Shown here piece after piece: positions 1,359 through 35,195 of a stretch of 64,000 bases of DNA. The translations under genes and the position numbers were made by a program. The notes below the pieces were generated by a model that was not told the origin of the DNA, made no database searches, and worked only from the letters and a program-made list of their open reading frames with translations. The stretch's first letter is position 1, and each line of letters begins with the position of its first letter. This DNA is from TPA_inf: Saccharomyces (lineage: Eukaryota): contig BK006941.2 of assembly GCA_000146045.2 (NCBI GenBank), positions 704,001 through 768,000 on the forward strand, given 5' to 3'.

Positions 1359-2501
1359 TCAACGTTTTTGTTTACACCAGTCAAAAACCTTGAAATAAAC
1401 CATGCCATGTTTAGGCTTTTTGTATTTAAGTCTCAAGGAATCTAGATTCGTATCAGGTACAGCAATATCTTCAACTAGTTCACTGATAAAATCCTTAAAC
1501 GCTGGATCTGATTCAATATCAATGCCGCCACTATAATGAATAAAAGTTTCATCCCATTTGGAATTTTCATTTTTAATTTTTCTGGCGATATACATGGACA
1601 TTGCAGCTAAATATGATGGCTTCAGGTGGATGAATTTATTACAACAAATCGAATATTCCATGATGAATTTGGCCATGTTCCTTGTTTCAATGCAGTAATT
1701 GTCAGCTTTTGAAATTCTCCTAATGAAATTTAGGGGGTTTGGTAGAGATATGTTATAACCTAAAGAACTTAGAACGAATAGCTCAGCCTTCCTAATTCCT
1801 TCGACAGTGGCAGCACCGTCAGTCACGTACGCAAAATTTGTTATTTTTGGTAATTTAACTTCTTCAAATTTACAGGCAATGAACAGGCAAGTGATGCATA
1901 GTAGTTGTAATTTATTCAATTTAACAACATTTTGTGATAAAAATCGATCTAGCAGGTTGATCGCTAAAAATAATGTTTCAGGTAAGCAGTGAAATTTCTC
2001 ATGAACTTCAACCAACCAGTCAATTAACAGCGCCCTCATGGAGCTTTTCAAATGATAGGGAGATTGCGTGTCCATTAAATAGTTATGTGTCGGTAGCATT
2101 TGGATTTCCTTCTCGTAAAGATGAGAAAATATAGAATCTGTATATTCTGCTACCATGAATGGATCATCCATCTCTATCGAATCCAAATTTTTCCATTGAT
2201 GACATTTTATTTTTTTCACAGTTTTTGGCTCTATAGGATCGGTTGAATCATTTGATAATTGTCTCTTTCTTGTTTTTTCCAAATGGGTGGAATCTCTTTG
2301 CAATTTACCTCGAGGGAGTTGTAAAGAATCGATTTTGTTACTGTTTACCTCGGATAGAACTTTTTTTTCATTCGTAGAGTGAGGTGTCAAGTTAATTGAA
2401 CTTTCTCTTGGAATGGTATGGAAAGCATTTTCCTTGCCTATACAATCTTCATTATTAATTTGGATTTTCCTTTCACTAATTGGACTAGGGATACAATTCA
2501 T
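1359..2501 (-). CDS. CLB6: B-type S-phase cyclin, 380 aa
   Basis: Complete ATG-to-stop ORF of 380 aa with a cyclin box (MRALLIDWLVEVHEKF..QLLCITCLFIACKFEE). It is convergent with the upstream cyclin, and the 380-aa length matches CLB6. Confidence 0.85.
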   Translation of the reverse strand: MNCIPSPISERKIQINNEDCIGKENAFHTIPRESSINLTPHSTNEKKVLSEVNSNKIDSLQLPRGKLQRDSTHLEKTRKRQLSNDSTDPIEPKTVKKIKCHQWKNLDSIEMDDPFMVAEYTDSIFSHLYEKEIQMLPTHNYLMDTQSPYHLKSSMRALLIDWLVEVHEKFHCLPETLFLAINLLDRFLSQNVVKLNKLQLLCITCLFIACKFEEVKLPKITNFAYVTDGAATVEGIRKAELFVLSSLGYNISLPNPLNFIRRISKADNYCIETRNMAKFIMEYSICCNKFIHLKPSYLAAMSMYIARKIKNENSKWDETFIHYSGGIDIESDPAFKDFISELVEDIAVPDTNLDSLRLKYKKPKHGMVYFKVFDWCKQKR

Positions 2502-2939: not shown

Positions 2940-3107
2940 CCATTGTCTATACGGTAATATAGGGCTTTCTTCATTACCTGCTTGCGTCAATTAGCTTTAC
3001 TCATGTAACACATAATAACCTCTTACATTGTAATGAGGCCCAAAAAAAAAAAAAGAACATCTTCAAAAAAAAAAAACTTTCATGGAAGGACCACCTAGTT
3101 AATAAAA

Positions 3108-3179
3108 AGCTCGCACTCAGGATCGAACTAAGGACCAACAGATTTGCAATCTGCTGCGCTACCACTGCGCCATACGAGC
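3108..3179 (-). tRNA. tC(GCA)G: tRNA-Cys (anticodon GCA), 72 nt, no intron
   Basis: The reverse complement reads GCTCGTATGGCGCAGTGGTAGCGCAGCAGATTGCAAATCTGTTGGTCCTTAGTTCGATCCTGAGTGCGAGCT. Cloverleaf elements and the internal A box (TGGCGCAGTGG) and B box (GTTCGATCC) are recognisable. A T5 run follows the 3' end on the minus strand and would act as the Pol III terminator. Confidence 0.9.
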
Positions 3180-3189
3180 TTGATTTTCT

Positions 3190-3194
3190 GAAAG
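3190..3194. repeat. 5-bp target-site duplication GAAAG flanking Ty3; the second copy is at 8546-8550
   Basis: GAAAG lies immediately 5' of the left LTR and again immediately 3' of the right LTR. Ty3 integrase generates 5-bp duplications at Pol III transcription start sites. Confidence 0.9.
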
Positions 3195-3534
3195 TGTTGT
3201 ATCTCAAAATGAGATATGTCAGTATGACAATACGTCACCCTGAACGTTCATAAAACACATATGAAACAACCTTATAACAAAACGAACAACATGAGACAAA
3301 ACCCGACCTTCCCTAGCTGAACTACCCAAAGTATAAATGCCTGAACAATTAGTTTAGATCCGAGATTCCGCGCTTCCACCACTTAGTATGATTCATATTT
3401 TATATAATATATAAGATAAGTAACATTCCGTGAATTAATCTGATAAACTGTTTTGACAACTGGTTACTTCCCTAAGACTGTTTATATTAGGATTGTCAAG
3501 ACACTCCGGTATTACTCGAGCCCGTAATACAACA
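3195..3534 (+). repeat. Ty3 5' LTR (sigma element), 340 bp
   Basis: By eye it is identical to the 3' LTR copy. The termini are TGTTG...CAACA, and a TATA-like TATAAATG lies inside. Confidence 0.95.
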
Positions 3535-3609
3535 CCTGGTAGCGTTAAAGGTTACTAATTGTTCAAACGAACCATCGAAAAGCCGAACCTAGCTACACCA
3601 CACCCCAGT

Positions 3610-4482
3610 ATGAGCTTTATGGATCAAATCCCAGGAGGAGGAAATTATCCAAAACTCCCAGTAGAATGCCTTCCTAACTTCCCGATCCAACCATCTTTGA
3701 CCTTCAGAGGTAGAAATGACTCGCATAAACTGAAAAACTTTATCTCCGAAATAATGTTAAACATGTCTATGATATCTTGGCCGAATGATGCCAGTCGTAT
3801 TGTGTACTGCAGAAGACATTTATTAAACCCCGCTGCTCAGTGGGCTAATGACTTTGTACAAGAACAAGGTATACTTGAAATAACATTCGACACATTCATA
3901 CAAGGATTATATCAGCATTTCTATAAGCCACCAGATATCAATAAAATCTTTAATGCAATCACGCAACTTTCCGAAGCTAAACTTGGTATTGAGCGTCTCA
4001 ACCAACGATTCAGAAAGATTTGGGACAGAATGCCACCAGACTTCATGACCGAAAAAGCTGCCATAATGACATATACTAGGCTATTGACAAAGGAAACCTA
4101 TAATATTGTCAGAATGCACAAACCAGAGACATTAAAAGACGCCATGGAAGAGGCTTACCAGACAACTGCACTAACTGAAAGATTCTTCCCAGGATTCGAA
4201 CTTGATGCTGATGGAGACACTATCATCGGTGCCACAACCCACTTACAAGAAGAATACGACTCTGACTATGATTCAGAAGATAATCTGACCCAGAATGGAT
4301 ACGTCCATACCGTAAGGACAAGAAGATCTTACAATAAACCAATGTCAAATCATCGAAACAGGAGAAATAACAACCCATCTAGAGAAGAATGTATAAAAAA
4401 TCGGCTATGCTTCTATTGTAAGAAAGAGGGACATCGCCTGAACGAATGTAGAGCACGTAAGGCGAGTTCTAACCGATCTTGA
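3610..4482 (+). CDS. GAG3: Ty3 Gag (capsid/nucleocapsid), 290 aa, with a CCHC zinc knuckle near the C-terminus
   Basis: ORF from the ATG at 3610 (MSFMDQIPGG...) to the stop at 4482. A CX2CX4HX4C motif (CFYCKKEGHRLNEC) is present. The ORF track begins 17 codons upstream, also at an in-frame ATG; I chose 3610 to match the 290-aa Gag3 I recall starting MSFMDQ. Confidence 0.9.
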   Translation: MSFMDQIPGGGNYPKLPVECLPNFPIQPSLTFRGRNDSHKLKNFISEIMLNMSMISWPNDASRIVYCRRHLLNPAAQWANDFVQEQGILEITFDTFIQGLYQHFYKPPDINKIFNAITQLSEAKLGIERLNQRFRKIWDRMPPDFMTEKAAIMTYTRLLTKETYNIVRMHKPETLKDAMEEAYQTTALTERFFPGFELDADGDTIIGATTHLQEEYDSDYDSEDNLTQNGYVHTVRTRRSYNKPMSNHRNRRNNNPSREECIKNRLCFYCKKEGHRLNECRARKASSNRS

Positions 4483-7400
4483 ACTCGAATCAAAAGACCA
4501 ACAAACTCCTTTTATCAAAACCTTACCAATTGTACACTATATCGCCATCCCCGAGATGGACAATACCGCCGAAAAAACCATAAAAATACAAAACACGAAA
4601 GTAAAAACCCTGTTTGACAGTGGATCACCCACGTCATTTATCCGAAGAGATATTGTAGAACTTCTCAAATACGAAATCTACGAGACCCCTCCACTCCGTT
4701 TTAGAGGATTCGTAGCCACCAAATCCGCCGTTACATCCGAAGCAGTCACCATTGACCTCAAAATCAATGACCTGCATATAACTTTAGCCGCGTACATACT
4801 GGATAACATGGACTACCAATTGTTAATTGGAAATCCAATCTTACGCCGCTACCCGAAAATCCTGCACACAGTACTGAATACCAGAGAGAGCCCCGACTCC
4901 TTAAAGCCCAAGACTTATCGCTCCGAAACCGTTAATAACGTTAGAACCTACTCCGCTGGTAATCGTGGTAACCCCAGAAACATAAAACTGTCTTTTGCCC
5001 CCACCATTCTCGAAGCAACTGACCCGAAATCCGCTGGTAATCGTGGTGACTCCAGAACCAAAACCCTGTCTCTTGCAACCACTACTCCTGCAGCAATTGA
5101 CCCGCTTACGACCCTTGATAACCCAGGTAGTACTCAAAGTACATTTGCGCAATTCCCGATACCTGAAGAAGCGAGCATCCTAGAAGAGGATGGAAAATAC
5201 TCCAACGTTGTCTCAACCATTCAGAGTGTAGAACCTAATGCTACTGATCACAGCAATAAGGACACCTTTTGCACTTTGCCAGTTTGGTTACAACAGAAGT
5301 ATAGAGAGATCATACGTAATGATCTCCCACCAAGACCTGCCGACATTAATAACATCCCCGTAAAACATGATATTGAAATTAAACCTGGCGCAAGACTACC
5401 TCGACTACAGCCATACCATGTTACAGAAAAGAACGAACAAGAAATCAACAAAATAGTTCAAAAACTGCTCGATAACAAGTTCATTGTTCCCTCAAAGTCG
5501 CCTTGCAGCTCCCCTGTAGTCCTCGTCCCGAAGAAAGACGGTACCTTCCGACTCTGCGTCGATTACCGCACCCTGAACAAAGCTACCATCTCCGACCCAT
5601 TCCCATTACCCAGAATCGACAACCTATTGAGCCGTATTGGAAATGCCCAGATATTTACCACGCTAGATTTGCATAGTGGTTACCACCAGATCCCGATGGA
5701 ACCCAAAGACCGCTACAAAACCGCCTTTGTCACACCATCCGGTAAGTATGAATATACCGTCATGCCATTTGGCTTAGTCAATGCACCTAGTACATTCGCA
5801 AGATACATGGCTGATACATTTAGAGACCTGAGATTCGTCAATGTTTACCTTGATGATATATTAATATTCTCCGAATCTCCAGAAGAACATTGGAAACATT
5901 TAGACACGGTACTAGAAAGATTAAAGAACGAGAACCTCATTGTTAAGAAGAAAAAATGTAAATTTGCATCTGAAGAAACTGAGTTTTTAGGCTATAGTAT
6001 TGGAATCCAGAAAATAGCTCCACTACAGCACAAATGTGCAGCAATCCGAGACTTTCCGACGCCTAAAACAGTAAAACAAGCACAGAGATTTTTAGGAATG
6101 ATTAATTACTACAGACGATTCATTCCAAATTGCTCCAAGATTGCACAGCCAATCCAACTGTTTATTTGTGACAAAAGTCAATGGACAGAAAAACAAGACA
6201 AGGCAATTGATAAACTAAAAGACGCCTTGTGTAACTCCCCCGTCCTAGTACCATTCAACAACAAAGCAAACTACCGACTTACAACAGACGCCTCAAAAGA
6301 CGGCATTGGTGCTGTTCTAGAAGAAGTCGACAACAAGAACAAACTTGTTGGTGTCGTCGGTTACTTCTCTAAATCCTTAGAGAGTGCCCAGAAAAACTAT
6401 CCTGCTGGCGAATTAGAACTACTTGGAATTATCAAAGCACTCCACCACTTCCGATATATGCTTCACGGAAAGCATTTCACGTTAAGAACAGACCACATTA
6501 GTTTGTTATCATTACAAAACAAGAACGAACCCGCACGACGCGTGCAACGCTGGTTAGATGACCTAGCCACATATGACTTCACCTTAGAATACCTAGCTGG
6601 ACCCAAGAACGTTGTCGCAGATGCCATATCCCGTGCCGTATATACTATAACCCCCGAAACATCCCGACCTATCGACACAGAAAGCTGGAAATCTTACTAC
6701 AAATCAGACCCATTATGTAGTGCTGTCTTAATTCATATGAAAGAATTGACACAACACAACGTCACACCTGAAGATATGTCAGCCTTCCGTAGTTACCAGA
6801 AGAAACTCGAACTATCAGAGACCTTCCGAAAGAATTATTCCCTAGAAGACGAAATGATCTATTACCAAGACCGACTAGTAGTACCAATAAAACAACAGAA
6901 CGCAGTTATGAGACTATATCATGACCATACCTTATTTGGAGGACATTTTGGTGTAACAGTGACCCTTGCGAAAATCAGCCCAATTTACTATTGGCCAAAA
7001 TTACAACATTCGATCATACAATACATCAGGACCTGCGTACAATGTCAACTAATAAAATCACACCGACCACGCTTACATGGACTATTACAACCACTCCCTA
7101 TAGCAGAAGGAAGATGGCTTGATATATCAATGGATTTTGTGACAGGATTACCCCCGACATCAAATAACTTGAATATGATCCTCGTCGTAGTTGATCGTTT
7201 TTCGAAACGCGCTCACTTCATAGCTACAAGGAAAACCTTAGACGCAACACAACTAATAGATCTACTCTTTCGATACATTTTTTCATATCATGGTTTTCCC
7301 AGGACAATAACCAGTGATAGAGATGTCCGTATGACCGCCGACAAATATCAAGAACTCACGAAAAGACTAGGAATAAAATCGACAATGTCTTCCGCGAACC

Positions 7401-8254
7401 ACCCCCAAACAGATGGACAATCCGAACGAACGATACAGACATTAAACAGGTTACTAAGAGCCTATGCTTCAACCAATATTCAGAATTGGCATGTATATTT
7501 ACCACAAATCGAATTTGTTTACAATTCTACACCTACTAGAACACTTGGAAAATCACCATTTGAAATTGATTTAGGATATTTACCGAATACCCCTGCTATT
7601 AAGTCAGATGACGAAGTCAACGCAAGAAGTTTTACTGCCGTAGAACTTGCCAAACACCTCAAAGCCCTTACCATCCAAACGAAGGAACAGCTAGAACACG
7701 CTCAAATCGAAATGGAAACTAATAACAATCAAAGACGTAAACCCTTATTGTTAAACATAGGAGATCACGTATTAGTGCATAGAGATGCATACTTCAAGAA
7801 AGGTGCTTATATGAAAGTACAACAAATATACGTCGGACCATTTCGAGTTGTCAAGAAAATAAACGATAACGCCTACGAACTAGATTTAAACTCTCACAAG
7901 AAAAAGCACAGAGTTATTAATGTACAATTCCTGAAAAAGTTTGTATACCGTCCAGACGCGTACCCAAAGAATAAACCAATCAGCTCCACTGAAAGAATTA
8001 AGAGAGCACACGAAGTTACTGCACTCATAGGAATAGATACTACACACAAAACTTACTTATGTCACATGCAAGATGTAGACCCAACACTTTCAGTAGAATA
8101 CTCAGAAGCTGAATTTTGCCAAATTCCCGAAAGAACACGAAGATCAATATTAGCCAACTTTAGACAACTCTACGAAACACAAGACAACCCTGAGAGAGAG
8201 GAAGATGTTGTATCTCAAAATGAGATATGTCAGTATGACAATACGTCACCCTGA
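3610..8254 (+). CDS. POL3: Ty3 Gag-Pol polyprotein made by programmed +1 ribosomal frameshifting. It joins 3610-4468 in frame 1 to 4470-8254 in frame 2. Pol carries aspartic protease (DSGS at about 4616), RT (YLDD), RNase H and integrase (HHCC and DDE).
   Basis: The POL3 frame is open for about 3.7 kb and overlaps the GAG3 3' end by 38 nt. The Ty3 frameshift heptamer GCG AGU U lies at 4462-4468, just before the GAG3 stop. Motifs seen in the translation include LFDSGSPTSF, VYLDDILIFS, an integrase zinc finger and a DDE-type core. Confidence 0.9.
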
Positions 8255-8545
8255 ACGTTCATAAAACACATATGAAACAACCTTATAACAAAACGAACAA
8301 CATGAGACAAAACCCGACCTTCCCTAGCTGAACTACCCAAAGTATAAATGCCTGAACAATTAGTTTAGATCCGAGATTCCGCGCTTCCACCACTTAGTAT
8401 GATTCATATTTTATATAATATATAAGATAAGTAACATTCCGTGAATTAATCTGATAAACTGTTTTGACAACTGGTTACTTCCCTAAGACTGTTTATATTA
8501 GGATTGTCAAGACACTCCGGTATTACTCGAGCCCGTAATACAACA
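8206..8545 (+). repeat. Ty3 3' LTR (sigma element), 340 bp
   Basis: Identical to the copy at 3195-3534 and preceded by the polypurine tract. Confidence 0.95.
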
Positions 8546-9039
8546 GAAAGTTCCATTTTGGATGCTCTATTTATGGGAATATGACTATACGAATGTCACC
8601 CACGATGGCCGGAGTAGCTGTGATGAGCATCTTTTTGTCCTGGGCGGCTTAAAACGTGAGCAAAATTGTACTGTAAATTACTTACGTTATCAATGGAAGT
8701 GTGTGAATTTCGTGATAAAATTATTGTCAGAATAGTGACTTCATTATTCTTTATAACTAACCATTAGGATCATATAAGTAATCAGATGCAGTTCGTCATT
8801 AATATGTCAGGATGGATAACCATAGGTAAGCACGTGATTATGGAAGGACAGTAAAGTTACCGATCTACTTTTTTGAATGATCAACTTGGTGTTTTCATCT
8901 ATAAGGATATGGGTCGTTACATTGAAACTATAGTAAAAGATCTCGTTATTGGTATATCGGTCATAATGAAGATGAAATAGTCGGTATGTATTTTTATACC
9001 CCCCCCTATATGGTAAAAAGGTTAAGATTCATATTTAAA

Positions 9040-9384
9040 TCTTCATTAATACCACCTCTAATTTCTAATTACCAACATTTTTAACTCCACTTTTATTATA
9101 TGCTATATACAACATTATGTAAAAGGAGTATACCAAAAATTCTCCTTCATAATATAGGAATTCACAAAATGGAACCGATATCTCCGCATAATGCTATTAT
9201 CATTTCTTACTCGTTTTATACATTGTCATTCATTATCTTATTGCATTTGCAATCCTTGTTTTCCGGCTTCTGTGAAATTTGACGACTGATTCTCAATTTT
9301 ATGTCATCTTTTTACACTTATATATGACAATATACTAGTAGTATGAAGACTAATCAACGGAGGTTATTTGATTTCTATTCTAAC
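9040..9384 (-). repeat. Degenerate delta-type (Ty1/Ty2 family) solo LTR remnant on the minus strand
   Basis: The reverse complement resembles delta termini: ...GTTAGAATAGAAATCAAATAACC... at 9371-9384, and an internal ...GAATTCCTATATTATGAAGGAGAATTTTTGG... that matches the conserved delta core GATTCCTATATCCTCGAGGAGAAC. Boundaries are approximate. Confidence 0.5.
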
Positions 9385-9708
9385 TTATTTGAACATATAT
9401 AATTTGTAAATTTTATGCAGATTAGACTTGGGAGTTATCACAACATTTTGTCAGTGTTTAGCCTCTTTCACCTTTGCCTTTTTCAGCCTTTTTTGTGTAA
9501 ATTGATGGTGTAGTTTGTTTCTGAAAGGGCTCTTTTTATTTTTTTCGCTTCCGCCGTTCGTTATTGGATAATCCCCGAAATATGCTAGAGTGGCTGATAC
9601 ATTATAGAACATAAAAGTGAGCTGCAATGAGCACTCAAGCACGTTATTGACAAGGATAACGGAAAGGTACACTAATACTTATACTGATTAATAAGGGTTA
9701 GCCTTTTA

Positions 9709-11046
9709 ATGTTCAAGTCAACTTTAAACTCCATAATAAGAAGACCCTTGAAAGGTTTTCAACTTCTTAGAGGGGCTGACTCATCGAATACACGGCCACA
9801 GTCCCCTAGAGCCTCCGCAAGAGATGTTACAGAGAAACAGATATTAAGAACTCCGTCAGCACCAACTGCAATACCATTAAGGGAGATTATCTATAGAGTC
9901 CCAAGCTTGTTTCCTCGCCCTTTAGAAGATTCTGTTAAGGACTTCCGAGATTTTATCAAGAACGAGGATGCATTCCAGACTGAACTTTTGAAAACGCTGC
10001 CATTCTACCCCACTCCTTCGGAATCAAAAACAGCAAGACTTATAAGAACTGTTGTTGATGATGAGGGCAATTACATCAATGAATTTTGCATACGCCCTCG
10101 AAAAACCTCAGTGCCTGAGGCTGACTTAAAACATCTGGTTTTCATTCATGGGTATGGCGCCGGATTGGGTTTTTTCATCAAGAATTTTGAGGATATTCCA
10201 CTATTGGATAACGAGTGGTGCATACATGCCATCGATTTGCCTGGGTATGGTTTTTCTTCAAGACCTAAGTTTCCGTTCGAGTATCCGAGAGATAATATTC
10301 ACAGCGTTCAAGATTGGTTTCACGAAAGAATACACACATGGTTTAGTAAAAGAAATCTTTTGAACCGACCTGAGAAAAACATTGTTATGGCACATTCTTT
10401 AGGGTCTTACTTGATGGCTTTATATTTGCAAAAATATAAGGAATCTCCATCTTTTAAAAAGCTGATCCTTTGTTCCCCAGCAGGCGTGTCTTATAGAGAT
10501 TTCAACAATACTGCTTCAGAGGTTGAAAAATGGAAACCGCCTCCTTGGTGGTATGTCAAGCTTTGGGACAGAAATATCTCGCCTTTTACACTAGTAAGAA
10601 ATTTTCGCCAGTTAGGTTCGAAGATTACAAGTGGATGGTCATATCGGCGCTTTAAGCACATTTTGAATGGTGATCCAGAACAGTCAAAACGGTTTGAAGC
10701 CTTGCATAGATACGCATATGCTATTTTCAATAAACGTGGTTCAGGTGAATACTTATTAAGCTTTGCTTTGAAATGTGGTGGTGAACCAAGACTATCATTG
10801 GAGCAGCAGCTATTCGATGGCAAAAAGTCTGATATTTTAAAGAATAGTAATTGTGACTGGCTTTGGCTTTATGGCGATGACGATTGGATGGATGTGAATG
10901 GTGGACTTAGAGTATCAAGATTCTTGAAAGAGAAGTTGAAACAAAAAAGTAACGTCATCATTGTTCCTCATTCAGGGCATCACTTGTACCTGGATAACTA
11001 TAAGTTTTTCAATAATATTCTTACGAAAGAAATGCAAAAAATATAA
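9709..11046 (+). CDS. CLD1: Alpha/beta-hydrolase fold mitochondrial cardiolipin-specific phospholipase, 445 aa
   Basis: ATG-to-stop ORF of 445 aa with a GXSXG lipase motif (AHSLGSY) and a HG..G oxyanion region ([12 protein letters not shown]). Its position matches YGR110W. Confidence 0.85.
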
Positions 11047-11827
11047 TGAAGAAATCTTGTGCATCTACATTATATAACGAAATTTTTACATACATTTTCG
11101 CCGCTATTTTTCTTCTTATCTCAAAATGAAATTACCGTTTGCAATCAACACCGGTCGCTGTTTTATTTTGTTCATAATAATAATTTAGATACAGCATGAA
11201 CTGTATATTAAAGTCAACGATTTCAACAATTCATTTCTGTGTAACTATTTTTCCAATAGAACCACTGTCTTTATGGAGTAGTTGGGCTCTATAAAAATTA
11301 TTTAGTTCCAAAGTTTGTTTATATTTTGTTTCTATAATAATGTATTGAAGATATAAACAAACATAATTTTACTGTTAACATTTAGGCGCAACAAAAGGAC
11401 GATCTTTTTTTATTTATCACAAGTTAAAGATTTTCGATACAAATAATATTGTGGTTTAAGGTACGTCCAACTCTACTTAAATCACTGAATCCTTCAGATA
11501 ACGAAATTACGAATAATATCTACTCTGTTTCTCCTTGTCTTTGTTCTTTCTTGCAGCCAGCCAAGCCCATTCGGGATCAGAGATTCAAATATCCCTGACG
11601 GCTGGTTCTGGATTAAGTTGATTTTGTGGAACTTCTGTCTTCACAATTATATTGTTACCCACTTAATGCTTCTCGGGGGTTAGAAACACTAGCACTTGAA
11701 AGAACATGAAAAATTGAAAAAAAAAAAAAACAATGCACAATAAATTCCAGGGGTTAGCGACTTTATACTTCTTCTGTTAGCTACTGTAGTGTTCTGTACA
11801 CATATTCACTTGTAGAAGTTGATTAGA

Positions 11828-13030
11828 ATGACAGCCTCATCAAATGACGATGACCTAATATTCGAATGTTATAGCGATCCTGAGTTAAAAAGATGGACAC
11901 ACCTTGCTAATGCAAAAGCTTGGAAAGGTATTCTGACCGTGCAGCAGTACGCTGATAGGGAACAATTGCTAGGGTCTTCAGAGATTTCTCAAAAGAATAA
12001 ATCAAATGAAATGATGACAAAATACCCAAAAAGTTACCAGTGGCTTGGGCAGAAGTACTTTGTTTTAAAGGATCGATCTTTGCCAGATAATGGAAAATTT
12101 AGTCAAGTTGTTTCCAGTTGCGAAACTTTAAACAGGATTGGATATTGTATTCATCCGGGTTCTAATGGAAAAATCGAGCCAGCTTTGATTGTATGCATTG
12201 GGGGCGTCTTTACCTTTGAAAACCATCGCGGCAAGGGCTACGCCAAGAAGATGATTATCAAACTGAATGAATTTTATGACAAGATTCGTGATGACGCTAA
12301 CACCGTACTAGAATTGAAAAATTTGGTGATTAACCTTTACAGCGAAGTCGGAGAATATTATTCCGCATTAGGATACGAGAGTATGCATGTTCCCTTGCAC
12401 CGCATTTCTAAATTAGATGAACTTACTGAGAGATACTGTGGAGAAGATGATGACCATGATGGTAAGTACTTGGGATTTGATGATTACAGGGGTTTAGTAG
12501 GACTACATGAGACACAGTTCAAAGAAAGCTTATTAAGTTTACACAAAGAAAACCCAGAGAAGTTTGTTTTTACCGTTGCGCCAGACTTTGACATTTTCAC
12601 ATGGTTTCAGTATCGTGATCTTTTTATCATGAATAAATCAGGAAGAAAAGCCCAGCAAAATCTGTTTTTTGGATACGCGTTGAGTGATAACAGCCACATC
12701 ATATGGCATCACAATTGGAACGGTGATTCTCTGATTATTGTCAAAATCCATATACCTGAAGAAACATTTCAAAGGAAAGAATTGAAGCTCAAAAAATTAC
12801 TAAGGAAGGCCATAGAAGAGACAAAGCTTCATGGATTGCAAGAATTAGAATTTTGGGACGAAGAAATTCCCATCAAAAAGTACCCACAATTGTTTCAGTT
12901 ATTAACAGAGCTTGAAAATGAATCTAAAGTTTTCTCAGAAAACGGTTCCATCAGTGCTGTTCGTCCCCCCAAAGGATATACAGCCGAGCAGGTAATTTGG
13001 GATAACAATACCAAATTCTGTTGGTTTTAA
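11828..13030 (+). CDS. YGR111W: Uncharacterised protein, 400 aa from the first ATG; the ORF track begins 3 codons upstream at TTG
   Basis: Long ORF with no obvious domain visible by eye. The first in-frame ATG is at 11828. Its position between CLD1 and SHY1 fits YGR111W. Confidence 0.75.
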   Translation: MTASSNDDDLIFECYSDPELKRWTHLANAKAWKGILTVQQYADREQLLGSSEISQKNKSNEMMTKYPKSYQWLGQKYFVLKDRSLPDNGKFSQVVSSCETLNRIGYCIHPGSNGKIEPALIVCIGGVFTFENHRGKGYAKKMIIKLNEFYDKIRDDANTVLELKNLVINLYSEVGEYYSALGYESMHVPLHRISKLDELTERYCGEDDDHDGKYLGFDDYRGLVGLHETQFKESLLSLHKENPEKFVFTVAPDFDIFTWFQYRDLFIMNKSGRKAQQNLFFGYALSDNSHIIWHHNWNGDSLIIVKIHIPEETFQRKELKLKKLLRKAIEETKLHGLQELEFWDEEIPIKKYPQLFQLLTELENESKVFSENGSISAVRPPKGYTAEQVIWDNNTKFCWF

Positions 13031-27126: not shown

Positions 27127-27200
27127 TAGTCAAAAAGACTCCATGGCCAAGTTGGTTAAGGCGTGCGACTGTTAATCGCAAGATCGTGAGTTCAACCCTC
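27127..27200 (+). tRNA. tN(GUU)G: tRNA-Asn (anticodon GUU), 74 nt
   Basis: GACTCCATGGCCAAGTTGGTTAAGGCGTGCGACTGTTAATCGCAAGATCGTGAGTTCAACCCTCACTGGGGTCG. An A box and a B box (GTTCAACCC) are present, and a T6 terminator follows. Confidence 0.9.
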
Positions 27201-27448
27201 ACTGGGGTCGTTTTTTGCTTGAAATGAGCAACATTGGAGGAAGATTTGTGAAATCCTCCAGTTTTCTTTTTTTCCTCTAGGTTTTAACGAATGTGATAAA
27301 AGATAACTAAATAGGAGGGTCATTAAAATGCTAGGTAACGTATAAACAATGCACATCTATACATATATGAAGGTTTGAATAAGGAATAAATAACACGTGC
27401 TCATAAAAAATCAAGAGAGCCAAGCTGGAAACAAAATCAATAAACCGT

Positions 27449-31981: not shown

Positions 31982-32322
31982 TGTTGTATCTCAAAATGAG
32001 ATACGTCAGTATGACAATACGTCATCCTAAACGTTCATAAAACACATATGAAACAACCTTATAACAAAACGAACAACATGAGACAAAACCCGTCCTTCCC
32101 TAGCTGAACTACCCAAAAGTATAAATGCCTGAACAATTAGTTTAGATCCGAGATTCCGCGCTTCCACCACTTAGTATGATTCATATTTTATATAATATAT
32201 AAGATAAGTAACATTCCGTGAATTAATCTGATAAACTGTTTTGACAACTGGTTACTTCCCTAAGACTGTTTATATTAGGATTGTCAAGACACTCCGGTAT
32301 TACTCGAGCCCGTAATTCAACA
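31982..32322 (+). repeat. Solo sigma (Ty3 LTR), about 341 bp, diverged from the two full-element LTRs; lies 17 bp upstream of tRNA-Arg
   Basis: TGTTGTATCTCAAAATGAGATACGTCAG...CGTAATTCAACA. It differs from the LTRs at 3195 and 8206 by several substitutions and a 1-nt indel. Confidence 0.9.
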
Positions 32323-32339: not shown

Positions 32340-32411
32340 GCTCGCGTGGCGTAATGGCAACGCGTCTGACTTCTAATCAGAAGATTATGGGTTCGACCCC
32401 CATCGTGAGTG
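32340..32411 (+). tRNA. tR(UCU)G2: tRNA-Arg (anticodon UCU), 72 nt
   Basis: GCTCGCGTGGCGTAATGGCAACGCGTCTGACTTCTAATCAGAAGATTATGGGTTCGACCCCCATCGTGAGTG. A box and B box (GGTTCGACCCC) are present, and a T7 terminator follows. The G2 suffix is recalled from memory. Confidence 0.9.
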
Positions 32412-35121: not shown

Positions 35122-35195
35122 GGTCTCTTGGCCCAGTTGGTTAAGGCACCGTGCTAATAACGCGGGGATCAGCGGTTCGATCCCGCTAGAGACCA
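35122..35195 (+). tRNA. tI(AAU)G: tRNA-Ile (anticodon AAU), 74 nt
   Basis: GGTCTCTTGGCCCAGTTGGTTAAGGCACCGTGCTAATAACGCGGGGATCAGCGGTTCGATCCCGCTAGAGACCA. A box and B box (GGTTCGATCC) are present, with a T5 run shortly downstream. Confidence 0.9.

What the first reader, a model, noticed from the sequence alone, without database searches (positions are those of the whole stretch)
3190..8550. Intact, apparently young Ty3 retrotransposon inserted at the Pol III start site of tRNA-Cys
The element is complete at 5351 bp. GAG3 and POL3 are both uninterrupted, the 340-bp LTRs look base-for-base identical, and the 5-bp target-site duplication GAAAG is perfect. The insertion point is 16 bp upstream of the mature tRNA-Cys 5' end, the position Ty3 integrase selects through TFIIIB/TFIIIC. 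Identical LTRs together with intact ORFs suggest a recent, possibly still mobile copy.
Basis: partly seen in the sequence, partly recalled or inferred. Interest (0 to 1): 0.55.

Follow-up and report, generated by a model that had tools for sequence, protein, structure and literature searches.

The report
Known active yeast Ty3 retrotransposon (Ty3-G)

Summary
The two 340-bp LTRs (3195-3534, 8206-8545) are identical. The element is 5351 bp and is flanked by a perfect GAAAG duplication. GAG3 (290 aa) and POL3 are open and joined by the Ty3 +1 frameshift heptamer GCGAGTT. The first LTR base lies at -16 from the mature 5' end of tRNA-Cys(GCA) (3108-3179, minus strand).

The Gag3-Pol3 fusion (1547 aa) is residue-for-residue UniProt Q99315 / PDB 7Q5B, "Transposon Ty3-G Gag-Pol polyprotein" of S. 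cerevisiae S288C. Protease, RT, RNase H and integrase catalytic motifs, the PBS and the PPT are all intact.

Ten other S. cerevisiae chromosome assemblies carry a single GAAAG and no LTR at this site. Some of them differ from the window's flanks by only 0.26-0.9 changes per kb. Two near-identical assemblies carry the insertion.

The insertion is therefore real, recent and polymorphic. Published work names YGRWTy3-1 as the transpositionally active Ty3 of the reference strain, and a cryo-EM study explains the targeting through TFIIIB.

Verdict: interpretation supported, already known, low interest.

The parts
3108..3179 (-). tRNA-Cys(GCA) gene, the Pol III target. It is transcribed divergently from the Ty3 and is followed by a T5 run.
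   Evidence: Rfam RF00005, 62.7 bits. ARAGORN finds anticodon GCA. The T run is visible.
3190..3194 (+). Left copy of the 5-bp target-site duplication GAAAG (-11 to -15 from the mature tRNA 5' end)
   Evidence: The same pentamer is single-copy in the empty sites of L001-L010.
3195..3534 (+). 5' LTR (sigma), 340 bp. It carries the TGAAACA pheromone-response-type motif at 3262 and TATA-like runs at 3401-3413. The genomic RNA +1 is inferred at 3417.
   Evidence: Identical to the 3' LTR. Motifs found. RNA +1 is derived from the published RNA numbering of the frameshift site and PPT.
3537..3544 (+). Primer-binding site TGGTAGCG, 2 nt after the LTR, complementary to the 3' end of initiator tRNA-Met
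   Evidence: The tRNAiMet sequence was supplied from memory. Use of tRNAiMet as primer and the bipartite PBS are stated in PMC11381356.
3610..4482 (+). GAG3, 290 aa: capsid plus nucleocapsid, with zinc knuckle CFYCKKEGHRLNEC at residue 267
   Evidence: Pfam Ty3_capsid, E = 1.2e-77. Exact match to NP_058162.3.
4462..4468 (+). +1 programmed frameshift heptamer GCG-AGT-T, in the GAG3 frame and inside the GAG3/POL3 overlap
   Evidence: The published Ty3 site is GCGAGUU (PMC11381356).
4466..8254 (+). POL3 as read after the shift (frame open from 4442). Protease ~4466-4996, RT ~5525-6001, RNase H ~6182-6574, integrase zinc domain ~6881-7060, integrase core ~7127-7405, integrase SH3 ~7760-7945. The last 49 nt lie inside the 3' LTR.
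   Evidence: The domain coordinates are converted from the Pfam residue ranges. Identical to PDB 7Q5B chain A and UniProt Q99315.
4952..5104 (+). In-frame 78-bp (26-aa) imperfect tandem repeat, 2 copies, 80% alike, between the protease and RT regions
   Evidence: Another strain's Ty3 copy (L015) has 3 copies.
8192..8205 (+). Polypurine tract GAGAGAGAGGAAGA, abutting the 3' LTR
   Evidence: The sequence equals the published Ty3 PPT (PMC11381356).
8206..8545 (+). 3' LTR (sigma), 340 bp
8546..8550 (+). Right copy of the target-site duplication GAAAG

Best explanation
The region is YGRWTy3-1 (Ty3-1, 'Ty3-G'), the transposition-competent Ty3 LTR retrotransposon of S. cerevisiae S288C, integrated next to the tRNA-Cys(GCA) gene that lies between the cyclin gene (1359-2501, minus) and the hydrolase gene (9709-11046, plus).

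How it works:
- The 5' LTR drives a Pol II transcript that starts at about 3417 (inferred).
- GAG3 is translated directly. At GCG-AGU-U (4462), a fraction of ribosomes skip one base and go on to make Gag3-Pol3.
- The protease cleaves the polyproteins inside virus-like particles.
- Reverse transcription is primed by initiator tRNA-Met at the PBS (3537) and by the PPT (8192). This step makes the two LTRs identical at birth.
- The integrase tetramer docks on TFIIIB (TBP-Brf1) bound upstream of a Pol III gene. It joins the cDNA ends 5 bp apart, just upstream of the start site, which produces the 5-bp duplication and leaves the tRNA gene intact.

Shown here: the anatomy, the intact reading frames and motifs, exact identity to the reference protein, the position relative to the tRNA, the duplication, and empty sites in other strains.

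Taken from the literature: activity of this copy, the frameshift mechanism, and TFIIIB docking.

Inferred: the position of the tRNA-Cys start site (about 3188-3189). Also inferred: TFIIIB for this tRNA gene must now sit on the first ~30 bp of the LTR.
For: LTRs identical, element 5351 bp, GAAAG duplication. GAG3 and POL3 open, with GCGAGTT in frame at 4462. The fusion is 1547 aa without a stop. Pfam order is Ty3_capsid, Peptidase_A2B, RVT_1, RT_RNaseH, Integrase_H2C2, rve, SH3_Tf2-1. The fusion is identical over 1-1547 to PDB 7Q5B_A 'Transposon Ty3-G Gag-Pol polyprotein' and is an exact match to UniProt Q99315; GAG3 is an exact match to NP_058162.3 of S288C. Catalytic motifs, PBS and PPT are present. 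tRNA-Cys is at 3108-3179. Ten assemblies have the empty site, including flanks only 0.26-0.9 differences per kb from the window. Two assemblies carry the same insertion, with 0 and 1 mismatch in 16.9 kb. Literature: YGRWTy3-1 is the active copy, and the frameshift and PPT sequences match (PMC11381356). There are two endogenous Ty3 copies in BY4741 (PMC4589538) and two full-length Ty3 in S288c (PMC3511429). Strand transfer occurs at -6/-2 of the start site through TFIIIB (PMC8632968). tRNA leaders are 10-12 nt, and Ty3 duplications lie within 20 bp of the tDNA (PMC6673722).
Against: Nothing in the sequence argues against it. Limits: transposition competence of this copy was not and cannot be tested here. 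The Pol III start site of this tRNA gene is not measured. The original papers on Ty3-1 (Hansen et al. 1988, 1990) are not held in the library, so their link between Ty3-1 and tRNA-Cys rests on my memory plus the database names.
Confidence: 0.97

Rival explanations
1. It is a structurally complete but dead copy, like the second full-length Ty3 of the reference strain (YILWTy3-1, 'Ty3-I'), disabled by changes that ORF inspection does not reveal.
For: Intact ORFs do not prove activity. The reference strain does hold one inactive full-length Ty3.
Against: The protein is identical to Ty3-G, not Ty3-I. The Ty3-I Gag chain (PDB 6R22) differs at three residues in the first 309. The 7Q5B chain, which carries this polyprotein sequence, comes from a complex that formed strand-transfer bonds in vitro. 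YGRWTy3-1 is named as the active copy. All cis sites are intact.
Confidence: 0.02
2. The insertion is old, and the LTRs are identical only because gene conversion, or assembly collapse of the two repeats, homogenised them.
For: LTR-LTR conversion occurs in yeast. Zero differences in 340 bp is a weak clock: with about 2e-10 substitutions per base per generation (value from memory), it excludes only ages above roughly 2e7 generations.
Against: Ten assemblies lack the element and any solo LTR, and they carry a single GAAAG. Among them are haplotypes only 3-8 differences from the window over 11.6 kb. No known mechanism removes an LTR element and restores a single copy of the duplication, so the empty site is the ancestral state. 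Two independent assemblies give the same element sequence.
Confidence: 0.03
3. It belongs to a different Ty3-like lineage (for example Ty3p of S. paradoxus) or is a chimera, rather than canonical Ty3.
For: Ty3p-derived solo LTRs exist in S. cerevisiae.
Against: It has 100% protein identity to Ty3-G, whereas Ty3p shares only 82% nucleotide identity with YGRWTy3-1. Ty3p is present in S. cerevisiae only as degenerate solo LTRs.
Confidence: 0

Closest known systems
YGRWTy3-1 (Ty3-1, Ty3-G; genes YGR109W-A / YGR109W-B) of S. cerevisiae S288C
   Same: Everything tested. GAG3 is an exact match to NP_058162.3 and Gag3-Pol3 to UniProt Q99315 and PDB 7Q5B. The frameshift site and PPT occupy the published positions relative to each other. 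The neighbours are tRNA-Cys, two cyclin genes and a hydrolase gene.
   Different: Nothing found. This is that element.
YILWTy3-1 (Ty3-2, Ty3-I), the other full-length Ty3 of the reference strain
   Same: Same family and organisation.
   Different: The Ty3-I Gag-Pol N-terminal chain (PDB 6R22) differs from the window's protein at three residues within 1-309. It is described as the non-active copy.
Solo sigma LTRs at tRNA genes, for example the one in this window at 31982-32322
   Same: 98.2% identical to the Ty3-G LTR. It sits 17 bp upstream of tRNA-Arg(UCU), following the same position rule.
   Different: It is an LTR only, the product of LTR-LTR recombination. Its flanking pentamers match at 4 of 5 (TAAGT / CAAGT). 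Its U5 end, not its U3 end, faces the tRNA gene.
Ty3 copies of other S. cerevisiae strains (L014 in YJM1248; L015)
   Same: 99.2-99.4% nucleotide identity and the same gene set.
   Different: They lie at other genomic places. L015 has three copies of the 78-bp POL3 repeat instead of two. Their Gag3 proteins differ by a few residues.

Membership tests
Ty3 (Metaviridae, Ty3/gypsy LTR retrotransposons) | Two direct LTRs of about 340 bp with TG...CA ends and a short terminal inverted repeat | tested here: met
   340 bp each, identical, TGTTGTAT...ATACAACA
Ty3 (Metaviridae, Ty3/gypsy LTR retrotransposons) | 5-bp target-site duplication | tested here: met
   GAAAG on both sides. The pentamer is single-copy in 10 empty sites.
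Ty3 (Metaviridae, Ty3/gypsy LTR retrotransposons) | Domain order capsid-nucleocapsid / protease - RT - RNase H - integrase, with integrase last, unlike Ty1/copia | tested here: met
   Pfam residue ranges: 17-205, 286-462, 639-797, 858-988, 1091-1150, 1173-1265, 1384-1445
Ty3 (Metaviridae, Ty3/gypsy LTR retrotransposons) | POL3 expressed by +1 frameshift at GCG-AGU-U in the GAG3/POL3 overlap | tested here: met
   The heptamer is at 4462 in the GAG3 frame, and POL3 is in the +1 frame. The shifted product equals Q99315. The frameshift event itself is taken from the literature.
Ty3 (Metaviridae, Ty3/gypsy LTR retrotransposons) | PBS complementary to initiator tRNA-Met next to the 5' LTR, and a polypurine tract next to the 3' LTR | tested here: met
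   TGGTAGCG at 3537-3544 and GAGAGAGAGGAAGA at 8192-8205. The PPT equals the published sequence. The tRNAiMet sequence used for the PBS test came from memory.
Ty3 (Metaviridae, Ty3/gypsy LTR retrotransposons) | Catalytic residues of protease, RT, RNase H and integrase | tested here: met
   DSG at 336. YLDD at 746. RNase H D893, E934, D961, D1004. HHCC at 1104-1145. D1175, D1236, E1272 with 35-residue spacing. D961 is the residue replaced by N in the Ty3 RT crystal construct 4OL8.
Ty3 (Metaviridae, Ty3/gypsy LTR retrotransposons) | Integration within a few bases of a Pol III transcription start site | tested here: inconclusive
   The distance is as expected: the duplication is at -11 to -15 from the mature tRNA 5' end and the LTR starts at -16. 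With strand transfer at -6/-2 of the start site, the start would be at -9/-10, a purine. This is close to the published 10-12-nt leader range. The start site of this gene was not measured.
Ty3 (Metaviridae, Ty3/gypsy LTR retrotransposons) | Ability to transpose | not testable with these tools
   The literature states that YGRWTy3-1 is the active copy (PMC11381356).
YGRWTy3-1 specifically (this copy, this locus) | Exact protein sequence and genomic neighbourhood of the S288C chromosome VII copy | tested here: met
   Exact look-up hits NP_058162.3 and Q99315. The same neighbours and sequence are found in two chromosome-scale assemblies. The chromosome VII coordinates are from my memory only.

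The most novel reading that the evidence does not exclude
The least ordinary reading not excluded has two parts. First, this insertion arose very recently in the direct ancestry of the laboratory lineage: it is absent from haplotypes only about 0.03% different in the flanks. Second, by replacing the native TFIIIB-binding region of tRNA-Cys with LTR sequence, it measurably alters expression of that tRNA gene. Separately, the 78-bp POL3 repeat varies in copy number between Ty3 copies (2 here, 3 in L015) and might tune activity. Neither would change how Ty3 is understood.
Probability: 0.15. Interest if true: 0.15.

Novelty: already known. Interest (0 to 1): 0.06.

Why it matters
It matters only as a check on the scan. 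The element itself is the standard laboratory model for position-specific retrotransposon integration. Its proteins have solved structures (capsid 6R22-6R24, RT 4OL8, intasome-TFIIIB 7Q5B). The one small addition made here is the direct demonstration of empty sites in ten other assemblies, including near-identical haplotypes. This agrees with published population surveys, which find that recently active Ty3 insertions are polymorphic (PMC3511429).

Tried and rejected
1. The original Ty3-1 papers (PMC365627, PMC249438) are not held. A full-text search for 'Ty3-1 / Ty3-2 / sigma / tRNA' found nothing.

The exact cluster look-up gave the names instead.

3. Exact-protein look-ups of GAG3 and of the 1232-aa POL3 ORF returned only this same locus, in two and one assemblies respectively. 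They gave no evidence of identical copies elsewhere. The index depends on gene calls, so absence means little.

4. The Ty3 copy in strain YJM1248 (L014) lies near tRNA-Leu(GAG) on the same chromosome arm. That assembly has 200 N next to it, so I did not trust its exact insertion point.

5. A search for Ty1/Ty2 delta LTR starts (TGTTGGAATA, from memory) gave chance-level matches.

6. I did not run the large protein searches, structure prediction or fold search, because exact matches to named proteins and solved structures already settle the identity.

Full report
**Observation**

I read both ends of the region and compared the repeats exactly.
- The LTRs occupy 3195-3534 and 8206-8545. Each is 340 bp, and they have no mismatch.
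- Their ends are TGTTGTAT...ATACAACA, an 8-bp inverted repeat with the TG...CA dinucleotides of LTR elements.
- The element is 5351 bp.
- GAAAG lies immediately outside on both sides (3190-3194, 8546-8550). Similarity stops at the LTR boundaries.
- The repeat finder's '99%' for 3190-3489 against 8201-8500 arises only because its reference copy starts 5 bases before the LTR.

**The tRNA gene**

- ARAGORN finds tRNA-Cys(GCA) on the minus strand at 3107-3180. The Rfam tRNA model places it at 3108-3179.
- That gives the 5' end GCTCGTATGG... and a T5 run after the 3' end.
- Counting from the mature 5' G at 3179, the duplicated pentamer is -11 to -15 and the first LTR base is -16.
- The Ty3 and the tRNA gene are transcribed away from each other.

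**Coding capacity**

- GAG3 runs 3610-4482 (290 aa). The POL3 frame is open from 4442 to 8254 and is +1 relative to GAG3.
- The heptamer GCGAGTT occurs once in the element, at 4462, with GCG in the GAG3 frame. It is the published Ty3 frameshift site (PMC11381356).
- Joining 3610-4464 to 4466-8254 gives a 1547-aa protein with no internal stop.
- Pfam finds, in this order: Ty3_capsid, Peptidase_A2B (Ty3 protease), RVT_1, RT_RNaseH, Integrase_H2C2, rve and the Tf2-type SH3 domain.
- Motifs present:
  - nucleocapsid zinc knuckle at residue 267;
  - protease DSG at 336;
  - RT YLDD at 746;
  - RNase H D893, E934, D961 and D1004;
  - integrase HHCC at 1104-1145;
  - integrase D1175, D1236 and E1272, with the 35-residue spacing.
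- POL3 ends 49 nt inside the 3' LTR.

**Cis sites**

- TGGTAGCG at 3537-3544, two bases after the 5' LTR, is complementary to the 3' end of initiator tRNA-Met. That tRNA sequence was supplied from memory.
- GAGAGAGAGGAAGA at 8192-8205 abuts the 3' LTR and equals the published polypurine tract.
- The published RNA coordinates of the frameshift site (1046) and of the PPT (4776) both place RNA +1 at window 3417. This is an internal consistency check showing that the window's element is collinear with the reference element.
- The LTR also carries a TGAAACA motif at 3262 and TATA-like runs just upstream of 3417. Reading these as the pheromone-response element and the promoter is from memory.

**Identity**

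- The 1547-aa fusion is identical along its whole length to PDB 7Q5B chain A, 'Transposon Ty3-G Gag-Pol polyprotein' (residues 1-957 shown, 944-1547).
- An exact-sequence look-up returns UniProt Q99315 for the fusion and NP_058162.3, 'gag protein [Saccharomyces cerevisiae S288C]', for GAG3.
- The Ty3 RT crystal construct 4OL8 differs only by the engineered D-to-N change at the RNase H site.
- The Ty3-I chain 6R22 differs at three residues. This is therefore the G (chromosome VII) copy and not the I copy.
- From memory, the window corresponds to about chromosome VII 704001-768000 of S288C. I could not verify these coordinates with the tools.

**Empty-site test**

I used the neighbouring cyclin protein (1359-2501, minus strand) to fetch ten other chromosome-scale assemblies.
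- In all ten, the cyclin-to-hydrolase gap is shorter by about 5.0-5.4 kb.
- In all ten, the sequence reads ...GAGCTT(G/A)ATTTTCTGAAAGTTCCATT... with one GAAAG, no Ty3 and no solo LTR.
- Their flanks differ from the window by 0.26 to 15.5 changes per kb. Five of them differ by fewer than 1 change per kb.
- Two further assemblies, found through the exact GAG3 protein, carry the insertion at the same place with the same duplication. They differ from the window at 0 and 1 positions in 16.9 kb.
- LTR elements are lost by LTR-LTR recombination, which leaves a solo LTR, and not by clean excision. The empty site is therefore the ancestral state, and the insertion is a recent, segregating one.
- This sample is not a frequency estimate, because the tool shows long contigs first and collapses similar places.

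**Mechanism and literature**

- PMC11381356 states that the reference background has two full-length Ty3 elements and that YGRWTy3-1 is the active one.
- PMC4589538 names the two endogenous copies.
- PMC3511429 counts two full-length Ty3 in S288c and finds that insertions of active clades are mostly polymorphic.
- PMC8632968, the source of 7Q5B, shows the integrase tetramer docked on TBP-Brf1. Strand transfer occurs at -6 and -2 from the Pol III start site, giving a 5-bp duplication. TFIIIB sits at -15 to -32.
- Applying that rule here puts the tRNA-Cys start at -9/-10 from the mature end (window 3188-3189, G or A on the tRNA strand). This sits at the short edge of the 10-12-nt leaders cited in PMC6673722. 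It is an inference.
- It follows, also by inference, that TFIIIB for this tRNA gene now binds the first ~30 bp of the LTR.

**Verdict**

The object is one of the best-characterised mobile elements in biology, so it is already known and of low interest. The only new piece of work here is the explicit empty-site comparison.

Noticed in passing
window 31982-32322 (with tRNA-Arg(UCU) at 32340-32411, + strand): A solo sigma (Ty3 LTR) of 341 bp, 98.2% identical to the LTRs of the full element. It ends 17 bp upstream of tRNA-Arg(UCU), with its U5 end facing the tRNA gene. The flanking pentamers are TAAGT and CAAGT (4 of 5 match). It is an older Ty3 insertion reduced by LTR-LTR recombination.
   Followed up: partly
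window 4952-5104; L015 1496-1726: An in-frame 78-bp (26-aa) imperfect tandem repeat in POL3, between the protease and RT regions. It has 2 copies here and 3 copies in a Ty3 copy of another S. cerevisiae assembly, whose POL3 ORF is accordingly 1258 aa instead of 1232 aa. The consequence of this copy-number variation was not examined.
   Followed up: partly
L014 about 7586-12883 (assembly GCA_000976905.2, strain YJM1248 by protein name): Another strain has a Ty3 copy 99.2% identical to this one. It lies on the same chromosome arm but at another place, between the VOA1-like gene and the cyclin genes, near tRNA-Leu(GAG). That assembly has 200 N there, so the exact junction is unreliable.
   Followed up: partly
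window 27137-27210 and 35122-35195: Two further tRNA genes, Asn(GTT) and Ile(AAT). The similarity search found no sigma LTR next to them. I did not check for other Ty-family LTRs beyond a chance-level motif search.
   Followed up: no
window 3107-3180 vs 3108-3179: ARAGORN's call for tRNA-Cys is one base longer at each end than the Rfam model's. This shifts a 'distance to the tRNA' count by one if it is used uncritically.
   Followed up: yes
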